Assembly: GCA_009914755.4 (NCBI GenBank)
Contig: CP068257.2
Coordinates: forward strand, 38,752,001-38,816,000
DNA: 64,000 nt
DNA from: the human T2T-CHM13v2.0 reference genome, Homo sapiens
Reading direction: 5' to 3'
Shown piece after piece: positions 5,835 through 5,981 of the stretch. The notes beneath the pieces were generated by a model. It saw nothing but the letters and a program-made list of their open reading frames with translations, did not search any database and was not told where the DNA came from. The position numbers and the translations under genes are program-made. Each line of letters starts with the position of its first letter. Position 1 is the first letter of the stretch.

Positions 5835-5981
5835 CTGATACAAAAAGTCTGGCGCTGTTGCTCTGCCTCGTCTCTCCGGTGTATCGATGCCGCGTGATGC
5901 AGCGGTAGTTATACAATCCATCTTCATTCTGTACATCTTTAATATACAAGGCTCCCGTGGATGTGATGAGAAATCTAGATC
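5835..5981 (-). CDS. DSCAM: Internal coding exon (147 bp) encoding part of an immunoglobulin I-set/C2 domain of a DSCAM-family cell-adhesion protein
   Basis: The minus-strand translation is (G)[48 protein letters not shown](D). This carries the Ig-fold signature L-x-I-x-x-V-x-x-x-D-x-G-x-Y-x-C. The acceptor is ...tgctttcattgtcttttaaccaagccactgttttcctctatttcag|GATCTAGATTT with a polypyrimidine tract. The donor is ...CTTTTTGTATCAG|gtaaaaacttatc. The exon begins at codon position 2 and ends after codon position 1 (2+144+1 nt), which is in-frame with V-S-D continuing into the next exon. The peptide matches my memory of human DSCAM (...[58 protein letters not shown]...); paralogue DSCAML1 is not excluded without a database search. 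The ORF-track entry 5785..6075 (-) extends into both introns and should be ignored outside the exon. Confidence 0.8.

What the first reader, a model, noticed from the sequence alone, without database searches (positions are those of the whole stretch)
5835..5981. Single isolated Ig-domain coding exon (DSCAM-family) on the minus strand
This 147-bp interval is the only one in 64 kb with a clean acceptor (ttttcctctatttcag|G), a clean donor (CAG|gtaaaa), an open frame across exactly the exon, and a peptide with the Ig-fold signature ([32 protein letters not shown]; L-x-I-x-x-V-x-x-x-D-x-G-x-Y-x-C). The peptide matches what I recall of human DSCAM Ig2 (...[10 protein letters not shown]...ARLFVSDPANSAP...). 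Phase (starts at codon position 2, ends after position 1) is consistent with an internal exon. It implies the whole window is intron of a very large neuronal adhesion gene transcribed right-to-left; DSCAM has very long introns, which fits. It is known biology rather than novel, but it is the one functional anchor in the window.
Basis: partly seen in the sequence, partly recalled or inferred. Interest (0 to 1): 0.5.

Follow-up and report, generated by a model that had tools for sequence, protein, structure and literature searches.

The report
Known human DSCAM coding exon 4
The flagged 147 bases are a real, already known coding exon (exon 4, half of the second immunoglobulin domain) of the human neuronal adhesion gene DSCAM, so the finding is correct but ordinary.

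Summary
Window 5835-5981 (minus strand) is a 147-nt interval bounded by ...ttttcctctatttcag|G and CAG|gtaaaa, in phase 1-1, and it encodes (G)[48 protein letters not shown].

- **Family:** its best solved-structure matches are all Drosophila Dscam, in the C-terminal half of Ig2 (E 8e-11). The next family, contactin, scores E 0.06.
- **Conservation:** four independent vertebrate contigs carry the same exon. It is exactly 147 nt with AG| and |GT at the same positions. Differences are mostly synonymous, and the flanks are no more alike than random DNA.
- **Locus:** eleven published DSCAM-AS1 oligonucleotides match the window perfectly at 18117-21744 on the plus strand. The literature places DSCAM-AS1 antisense in the 324-kb third intron of human DSCAM. 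That makes this DSCAM exon 4, not DSCAML1, at about chr21:40.369 Mb (GRCh38).
- **Other exons:** no other DSCAM exon lies in the window.

- The reading frame stays open beyond the exon, from 5785 to 6075.
- Four other intervals have splice signals at least as good.
- The quoted Ig motif does not fit exactly.
- The exon is not the only functional anchor, because DSCAM-AS1 is present.

This is known biology and of low interest.

The parts
5835..5981 (-). DSCAM coding exon 4. It is 147 nt, phase 1-1, and encodes the C-terminal half of Ig2: (G)[48 protein letters not shown](D). It contains the F-strand Cys of the Y-x-C motif.
   Evidence: Sequence and translation. PDB phmmer best hits are Drosophila Dscam residues 157-197 of 2v5m and 192-232 of 3dmk, E 8e-11. 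The exon has the same length and boundaries in L001-L004. Differences show purifying selection. The number 'exon 4' follows from DSCAM-AS1 lying in intron 3 (PMC4823100).
5982..6000 (-). 3' splice site of intron 3: polypyrimidine tract ctgttttcctctatttc followed by AG at 5983-5982.
   Evidence: An AG sits at the same position in all four related loci. The crude acceptor score of 8.0 bits puts it among the top ~20 of 8,509 AG sites in the window.
6008..6012 (-). Putative branch point TTAAC, with the branch A at 6009, 28 nt upstream of the exon. This is inferred only.
   Evidence: Read from the sequence. It fits the YTNAY consensus at a typical distance. It was not tested.
5829..5834 (-). 5' splice site of intron 4: CAG|gtaaaa. 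GT is at 5834-5833, and +5 is A rather than the consensus G.
   Evidence: A GT sits at the same position in all four related loci. The crude donor score is 2.4 bits.
5982..64000 (-). The 3'-most 58 kb of DSCAM intron 3, which the literature gives as 324 kb. It carries about 15 Alu elements and DSCAM-AS1 on the opposite strand.
   Evidence: No DSCAM-like coding segment was found with tblastn or tblastx. Intron identity comes from PMC4823100.
1..5834 (-). The first 5.8 kb of DSCAM intron 4.
   Evidence: No match to the Ig3 exon of DSCAM (recalled sequence) or to the Ig3/Ig4 exons of the fish orthologous loci.
19880..22190 (+). lncRNA gene DSCAM-AS1, antisense to DSCAM. The ends are approximate to about 40 nt. 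It is the memory-independent anchor that identifies the locus. It is not part of the exon.
   Evidence: **Oligonucleotides, all 0 mismatches**
- qPCR primers at 21545-21564(+) and 21643-21662(-), giving a 118-bp amplicon equal to the published size (PMC8632636).
- siRNAs at 21655-21679 and 21720-21744, and primers at 21616-21637(+) and 21695-21714(-) (PMC5525255).
- Promoter-cloning primers at 18117-18141(+) and 20066-20084(-) (PMC4823100).
- LNA gapmers at 20840-20855, 21638-21653 and 21656-21671, all antisense (PMC7352480).
- Six control oligonucleotides gave no match.

**Published description**
- The span is 2312 nt at chr21:40,383,048-40,385,359 (PMC12997336).
6122..6157 (-). Perfect (AC)18 microsatellite on the DSCAM sense strand, 141-176 nt upstream of the exon-4 acceptor. 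Its function is unknown. It may just be a neutral microsatellite.
   Evidence: Tandem Repeats Finder: (GT)18, 100% matches. Sequence shown.

Best explanation

**How it works**
- The spliceosome joins it to exon 3, which lies beyond the high-coordinate end of the window, by removing the 324-kb intron 3.
- It is then joined to exon 5, which lies beyond the low-coordinate end.
- Both flanking introns are in phase 1. The first two bases complete a Gly codon, and the last G starts the Asp codon of '...FVS-D-P...'.

**What it encodes**
- The 49 residues form the C-terminal half of immunoglobulin domain 2.
- This half holds the '...LYIKDV...' strand and the Y-x-C cysteine. That cysteine pairs with the B-strand cysteine encoded by exon 3.
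- Ig2 is part of the N-terminal Ig1-Ig4 horseshoe. In Drosophila Dscam this horseshoe carries the homophilic recognition surfaces.
- The split of Ig2 into two exons falls where the fly gene switches from its alternative exon-4 cluster (N-terminal half of Ig2) to constant sequence.

**Shown here:** the splice signals, the frame, the Dscam-specific homology, conservation of the exact exon boundaries, purifying selection, and the identity of the locus.

**Inferred from knowledge of the family:** actual splicing in vivo, the disulfide, and the role in adhesion.
For: - **Splice sites, length and phase** are read directly from the sequence.
- **Solved structures:** the 12 best hits are all Drosophila Dscam, aligned to the second half of Ig2 (query 3-43 against 2v5m 157-197), at E 8e-11 to 3e-10. 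The next family, contactin-4, scores E 0.058.
- **Related sequences:** 15 ORF fragments from public assemblies are 82-92% identical, and similarity stops at the exon ends.
- **Conserved boundaries:** in four such contigs (L001-L004) the exon is exactly 147 nt with AG| and |GT at the same positions.
- **Selection:** synonymous codon differences outnumber non-synonymous ones 19-21 to 4-8, with third-position bias. Flanks are at random identity.
- **Neighbouring exons in relatives:** L001 and L002 continue colinearly into the Ig3, Ig4 and Ig5 exons. The spliced L002 product aligns as one stretch with fly Dscam 3dmk residues 192-510 at E 1e-67.
- **Species:** about 15 dimeric Alu elements mark a primate genome.
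- **Locus:** 11 published human DSCAM-AS1 oligonucleotides match perfectly, in a coherent order and strand and with the published 118-bp amplicon. PMC4823100 puts that gene antisense in DSCAM intron 3. PMC12997336 gives its hg38 coordinates.
- **From memory:** It finds no other exon in the window.
Against: - Pfam gave no hit for the 49-residue peptide. This is expected for half a domain, but it means the Ig fold was not confirmed by a profile here.
- No transcript evidence (RNA-seq or cDNA) could be consulted, so splicing is inferred.
- No annotated human genome or proteome was available.
- The donor site is only moderate, with +5 A.
- A chimpanzee, bonobo or gorilla ortholog is not formally excluded. 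About 200 nt of perfectly matching human oligonucleotides favour human by roughly 10:1.
Confidence: 0.97

Rival explanations
1. The exon belongs to the paralog DSCAML1 (chr11) rather than to DSCAM.
For: DSCAML1 has a homologous Ig2 exon.
Against: - Identity to recalled DSCAM is 100%, against 61% for DSCAML1.
- The window carries DSCAM-AS1. Published work places that gene in DSCAM intron 3 on chr21.
Confidence: 0.005
2. It is a non-functional copy: a duplicated pseudo-exon or a fragment of a processed pseudogene that is not spliced into any mRNA.
For: No expression data could be consulted here.
Against: - Homology stops exactly at intact AG and GT sites instead of continuing into neighbouring exon sequence, as it would in a retrocopy.
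- The frame is intact, and the peptide is identical to the recalled protein.
- The exon sits at the expected side of DSCAM-AS1 in intron 3, on the expected strand.
- No second copy is in the window.
Confidence: 0.01
3. The window is the orthologous DSCAM exon 4 region of a non-human great ape. The biology is the same and only the species differs.
For: - Alu content shows only that it is a primate.
- At about 1.2% human-chimpanzee divergence, some 200 nt of oligonucleotides would match perfectly by chance about 9% of the time. This is my own estimate.
Against: All 11 human-designed oligonucleotides match with 0 mismatches.
Confidence: 0.08
4. It is a chance open interval with splice-like signals and no function.
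For: Four other intervals in the window have equal or better crude splice scores and an open frame. Signals alone are therefore not distinctive.
Against: - Dscam-specific homology at E 8e-11.
- Boundary-exact conservation in four vertebrate genomes.
- A purifying-selection pattern in the differences.
Confidence: 0.001

Closest known systems
[quoted passage not shown]
   Same: - The peptide is identical to the recalled protein at residues 170-218.
- The exon lies on the strand opposite DSCAM-AS1 and downstream of it in the DSCAM direction. This is as expected for the exon that ends intron 3.
- It has the phase 1-1 structure typical of Ig-domain exons.
   Different: Nothing was found to differ. 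Identity to the reference annotation could not be checked directly with these tools.
Drosophila Dscam1 constant sequence after the exon-4 cluster (Ig2 C-terminal half; PDB 2v5m, 3dmk)
   Same: - About 50% identical over 41 residues: KYLVLPSGELHIREVGPEDGYKSYQCRTKHRLTGETRLS against [39 protein letters not shown].
- Both share the unusual EDG-x-x-x-Y-x-C spacing and the TGETR motif.
- In the fly, the N-terminal half of Ig2 is encoded separately by the alternative exon-4 cluster (PMC3364881). Ig2 is therefore split between exons in both lineages.
   Different: - The fly gene has 12 mutually exclusive variants for the preceding half-domain. Vertebrate DSCAM has a single exon 3 and only two predicted isoforms (PMC3364881).
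- That the intron position is exactly homologous is my recollection. It was not tested here.
Human DSCAML1, homologous Ig2 exon
   Same: It is a homologous half-domain with the same C-terminal motif, GETRQSN.ARL.
   Different: - Identity is only 61% (recalled sequence).
- DSCAML1 is on chr11 and has no DSCAM-AS1.
Teleost-like dscam orthologs (contigs L001-L004 from Logan assemblies, species unknown)
   Same: - The same 147-nt exon with the same splice positions, at 83-92% amino-acid identity.
- The downstream exon order Ig3, Ig4, Ig5 is colinear with DSCAM.
   Different: - Their introns are 0.6-1.7 kb, against more than 5.8 kb and 324 kb here.
- The flanking intron sequence is unrelated.

Membership tests
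Dscam family (DSCAM / DSCAML1 / arthropod Dscam) | Sequence similarity that is specific to Dscam Ig2 rather than to Ig-superfamily adhesion molecules in general | tested here: met
   The 12 best PDB hits are all Dscam, at E 8e-11 to 3e-10, all aligned to the second half of Ig2. The next family, contactin, scores E 0.058.
Dscam family (DSCAM / DSCAML1 / arthropod Dscam) | Architecture of 9 Ig + 4 FN3 + Ig + 2 FN3 + a transmembrane segment | not testable with these tools
   Only one exon lies in the window. In related contigs the following exons are colinear with fly Dscam Ig2-Ig5 (3dmk 192-510, E 1e-67). This speaks for the orthologs, not directly for this gene.
Human DSCAM gene (chr21q22.2) | Genomic position: DSCAM-AS1 lies antisense within intron 3 | tested here: met
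   Eleven published DSCAM-AS1 oligonucleotides match at 18117-21744 with 0 mismatches, on the strand opposite the exon. The 118-bp amplicon is reproduced. The literature statement is in PMC4823100.
Human DSCAM gene (chr21q22.2) | Peptide identical to the reference DSCAM protein | tested here: inconclusive
No reference proteome was available. Searches of papers and supplements for the peptide found nothing.
Functional spliced exon | Canonical AG/GT boundaries conserved across species, with coding-type substitution | tested here: met
Functional spliced exon | Transcript evidence: junction reads or cDNA | not testable with these tools
   No RNA-seq or cDNA resource was available.
Immunoglobulin I-set domain | Match to an Ig profile (Pfam I-set, Ig_3 or ig) | tested here: inconclusive
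   The 49-residue half-domain gave no Pfam hit at E up to 10. The next exons of the orthologous loci do carry precomputed I-set/Ig_3 hits.
Immunoglobulin I-set domain | F-strand Y-x-C cysteine, B-strand cysteine and C-strand tryptophan | tested here: inconclusive
   Y-R-C is present and aligns with the Y-Q-C of fly Dscam Ig2. The B-strand Cys and the Trp would be encoded by exon 3, which is outside the window. The classic D-x-G-x-Y-x-C spacing is not met, because the sequence is D-G-x-Y-x-Y-x-C.
DSCAML1 | High identity to DSCAML1 Ig2 and a chr11 locus | tested here: not met
   Identity to recalled DSCAML1 is 61%. The locus carries DSCAM-AS1.
Processed pseudogene / retrocopy | Homology continues across exon junctions without introns | tested here: not met
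   The alignment to DSCAM ends at the splice sites, and the upstream residues KPLFSSIS are unrelated to KDTVSLVS. tblastx similarity is confined to about 5815-6002.

The most novel reading that the evidence does not exclude
The perfect (AC)18 repeat on the DSCAM pre-mRNA, 141-176 nt upstream of the exon-4 acceptor (window 6122-6157), could be an hnRNP L-responsive intronic element. It would tune inclusion of exon 4, which is symmetric and in frame, so skipping it would yield a DSCAM lacking half of Ig2. The same intron encodes DSCAM-AS1, whose 3' end carries the 10-nt CACA stretch reported to bind hnRNP L (window 21926-21935; PMC5052669). A local link between the lncRNA and host-gene splicing is conceivable. 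Nothing here tests this. PMC5052669 reports that DSCAM-AS1 knockdown leaves DSCAM RNA and protein levels unchanged, which argues against a strong effect.
Probability: 0.04. Interest if true: 0.35.

Novelty: already known. Interest (0 to 1): 0.07.

Why it matters
This matters only as an anchor. It fixes the window as human chr21q22.2, at the end of DSCAM intron 3, exon 4 and the start of intron 4, and it sets the orientation. Everything else in the 64 kb should then be read as deep intronic sequence of a large neuronal gene, plus the embedded oncogenic lncRNA DSCAM-AS1. DSCAM matters for neuronal self-avoidance and wiring, and it is implicated in Down syndrome and autism. Nothing about this exon is new. 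The practical lesson is that splice signals plus an open frame were not unique in the window. Homology and conservation are what single this exon out.

Tried and rejected
- **Pfam scan of the 49-residue peptide:** no hit. A half-domain is too short.
- **Rfam scan of the whole window at gathering thresholds:** nothing.
- **Large protein database:** it returned only short ORF fragments from contaminating or vertebrate contigs, with no named full-length DSCAM. It could not name the gene, so I ran no further search on it.
- **Full-text search for four peptide strings from the exon:** 0 papers. The same strings in the 35 supplements of PMC3364881 gave 0 hits.
- **Recursive splice sites** (pyrimidine tract, then AG|GTRAG) on either strand, as might be expected in a 324-kb intron: none. 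The shuffled expectation was 0.07 per strand.
- **Oestrogen-response element** GGTCAnnnTGACC with up to 1 mismatch near the DSCAM-AS1 promoter: only one chance-level match, far away at 8658.
- **Papers linking DSCAM-AS1 to an Alu-derived start site:** none relevant.
- **First splice-site thresholds:** these were too strict and excluded the target itself. I redid the scan with the target's own scores as thresholds.
- **Rejected readings:** DSCAML1, a retrocopy, and a chance ORF (see rival explanations).

Full report

Read on the minus strand, the window shows ...ctgttttcctctatttcag|GATCTAGATTTC...TTTTTGTATCAG|gtaaaaac.
- The acceptor AG is at 5983-5982.
- The exon runs from 5981 to 5835, which is 147 nt.
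- The donor GT is at 5834-5833.
- Codons 5979-5836 translate to [48 protein letters not shown].
- Two bases precede these codons and one follows, so both introns are in phase 1. The exon length is a multiple of three.

Four details are not.
- The frame is open well beyond the exon. The ORF runs from 5785 to 6075, and a second frame is also open across the exon.
- The donor has A at +5 and is only moderate.
Four other open AG..GT intervals of 60-300 nt equal or beat the target on both sites: 28414-28531, 60016-60122, 7191-7328 and 22588-22672, all on the plus strand. The interval is therefore not unique on signals alone.
- The quoted motif D-x-G-x-Y-x-C is not matched exactly. The sequence is D-G-L-Y-N-Y-R-C.

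**2. Is it more than chance, and what is it?**

A phmmer search of all PDB chains with the 49-residue product returned Drosophila Dscam for the 12 best hits.
- E-values were 8e-11 to 3e-10.
- Every hit aligned query residues 3-43 to the second half of Ig2 (2v5m 157-197, 3dmk 192-232).
- The alignment is [39 protein letters not shown] against KYLVLPSGELHIREVGPEDGYKSYQCRTKHRLTGETRLS.
- The next family, contactin-4, scores E 0.058. The match is therefore specific to Dscam, not generic to Ig domains.
- Fly Dscam has the same one-residue-longer EDG...Y-x-C spacing.
- Pfam found nothing for the half-domain.

The large protein database returned 15 short ORF fragments, 82-92% identical, from public assemblies. 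Their similarity starts at 'RFLITS / RYLITS' and ends at '...VSG'. I fetched the DNA for four of them, L001-L004.
- In all four the homologous exon is exactly 147 nt.
- A pyrimidine-rich tract and AG precede it, and GT follows it, at the same positions as in the window.
- Between the window and these loci, 19-21 codons differ synonymously and only 4-8 non-synonymously. Differences concentrate at third positions.
- The 147 nt on either side are 24-37% identical, which is the random level.
- This is the signature of a coding exon under purifying selection with conserved splice sites.
- L001 and L002 continue downstream into further Ig exons. The hand-spliced L002 product aligns as one colinear stretch with fly Dscam residues 192-510 at E 1e-67. 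Titin and contactin-2 follow far behind.

**3. Which gene and which species?**

It is therefore a primate genome.

Neither found any other match in the window.

Because those probes rest on my memory, I looked for an independent anchor. Published oligonucleotides for the lncRNA DSCAM-AS1 all match the window perfectly.
- qPCR primers from PMC8632636 lie at 21545-21564(+) and 21643-21662(-). They give exactly the published 118-bp product.
- siRNAs and primers from PMC5525255 lie at 21616-21744.
- Promoter-cloning primers from PMC4823100 lie at 18117-18141(+) and 20066-20084(-).
- Three LNA gapmers from PMC7352480 lie at 20840-20855, 21638-21653 and 21656-21671, all antisense.
- Six control oligonucleotides for other genes, or a scrambled sequence, gave no match.

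[quoted passage not shown] PMC12997336 gives chr21:40,383,048-40,385,359 (GRCh38), a span of 2312 nt.

In the window DSCAM-AS1 is on the plus strand at about 19.9-22.2 kb. The exon is on the minus strand, about 14 kb further along in the DSCAM direction, with no other DSCAM-like segment between them.

The exon is therefore DSCAM exon 4, at roughly chr21:40.369 Mb. The high-coordinate 58 kb is the end of intron 3. The low-coordinate 5.8 kb is the start of intron 4. Human is favoured over other great apes by the perfect match of about 200 nt of human oligonucleotides, but an ape ortholog is not strictly excluded.

**4. How does it work?**

*Shown here:* canonical splice signals, a plausible branch point (TTAAC, with the A at 6009, 28 nt upstream), phase 1-1, and Dscam Ig2 homology.

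*Inferred from established knowledge of the family:*
- The exon is spliced between exon 3 (N-terminal half of Ig2) and exon 5 (Ig3).
- It contributes the C-terminal strands of the Ig2 sandwich. These include the Y-x-C cysteine, which forms the intradomain disulfide with a cysteine encoded across the 324-kb intron.
- Ig2 is part of the Ig1-Ig4 horseshoe, which mediates homophilic recognition in Dscam proteins.
[quoted passage not shown] The segment homologous to this exon is the constant sequence that follows it.
- Because the exon is symmetric, skipping it would keep the frame but remove half a domain.

**5. How does it compare with what is known, and is it new?**

This is an annotated exon of a well-studied human gene, so it is already known. 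The corrections are that the exon encodes half of Ig2, not a whole domain, and that it is not the only functional element in the window.

**6. What led nowhere?**
- Rfam at gathering thresholds found nothing.
- No recursive-splice motif is present on either strand.
- There is no near-consensus oestrogen-response element near the DSCAM-AS1 promoter.
- Peptide strings were not found in papers or supplements.
- tblastx of the four related loci against the window shares only the exon, apart from a low-complexity hit at an (AC)n repeat.

**7. Verdict**

Interest is low (0.07).

The only speculative angle is the perfect (AC)18 tract 141-176 nt upstream of the acceptor. It lies in an intron that also hosts an hnRNP L-binding lncRNA, whose CACA stretch is at 21926-21935. 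Nothing here supports a functional link. Published knockdown data showing no change in DSCAM levels (PMC5052669) argue against a strong one.

Noticed in passing
window 18117-22190 (+): The known oestrogen-receptor-dependent breast-cancer lncRNA gene DSCAM-AS1 lies in the window, antisense to DSCAM. Eleven published primers, siRNAs and LNA gapmers match perfectly. The cloned 2-kb promoter fragment is 18117-20084, and the common last exon includes 21545-21744.
   Followed up: yes
window 19882-20170 (+): The DSCAM-AS1 start site appears to lie inside, or at the edge of, a sense-oriented Alu that is 83% identical to AluY. I infer the start at about 19,875-19,915 from two published statements: the promoter construct includes '~170 bp downstream of the TSS', and the gene spans 2312 nt. 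The promoter reverse primer itself sits in this Alu. This suggests a primate-specific, Alu-derived first exon or promoter. A literature search found no paper discussing it. The exact start site was not determined.
   Followed up: partly
window 21926-21935 (+): [quoted passage not shown] It fits the '10 base pair CACA stretch' reported as the hnRNP L binding site (PMC5052669). It is the only CA/AC run of four or more units found in 19801-22400.
   Followed up: partly
window 6122-6157: A perfect (GT)18 repeat, which reads (AC)18 on the DSCAM sense strand, lies 141-176 nt upstream of the exon-4 acceptor. It is probably a polymorphic microsatellite. CA repeats are hnRNP L binding sites, so an effect on splicing is conceivable but untested.
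   Followed up: no
window 15395-15725 (-): An AluY-like element is 98% identical to the consensus and has an uninterrupted 48-nt poly(A) tail (T48 on the plus strand at 15395-15442). These are signs of a very recent, possibly polymorphic, insertion. A second young Alu (97%) lies at 17615-17902 (+).
   Followed up: no
window 21160-21445 (+): Another Alu sits inside the DSCAM-AS1 transcription unit, just upstream of the region targeted by all published last-exon assays. I could not tell whether it is intronic or part of the last exon. The AG at 21462-21463 lies in the Alu's A-rich tail and has no pyrimidine tract. A better-looking acceptor is at about 21040.
   Followed up: no
window 13126-13580; 33465-33591; 34563-34819: There is an AT-rich minisatellite (42-nt period, about 10 copies) and two degenerate trinucleotide arrays (ACT/TAC). 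The latter coincide with the strongest negative GC skew in the window, at 34-36 kb.
   Followed up: no
L001 3038-5326 and L002 275-3492: The related contigs are from Logan assemblies DRR477421 and ERR3904010, species unknown. They carry the Ig2b, Ig3, Ig4 and Ig5a exons of a dscam ortholog within 2-3 kb. These are compact, fish-like introns, against hundreds of kilobases in the primate gene. Two sequence groups among the hits (..[16 protein letters not shown].. and ..ILDVLPEDGLNNYRCT..) may be the two teleost paralogs dscama and dscamb.
   Followed up: partly
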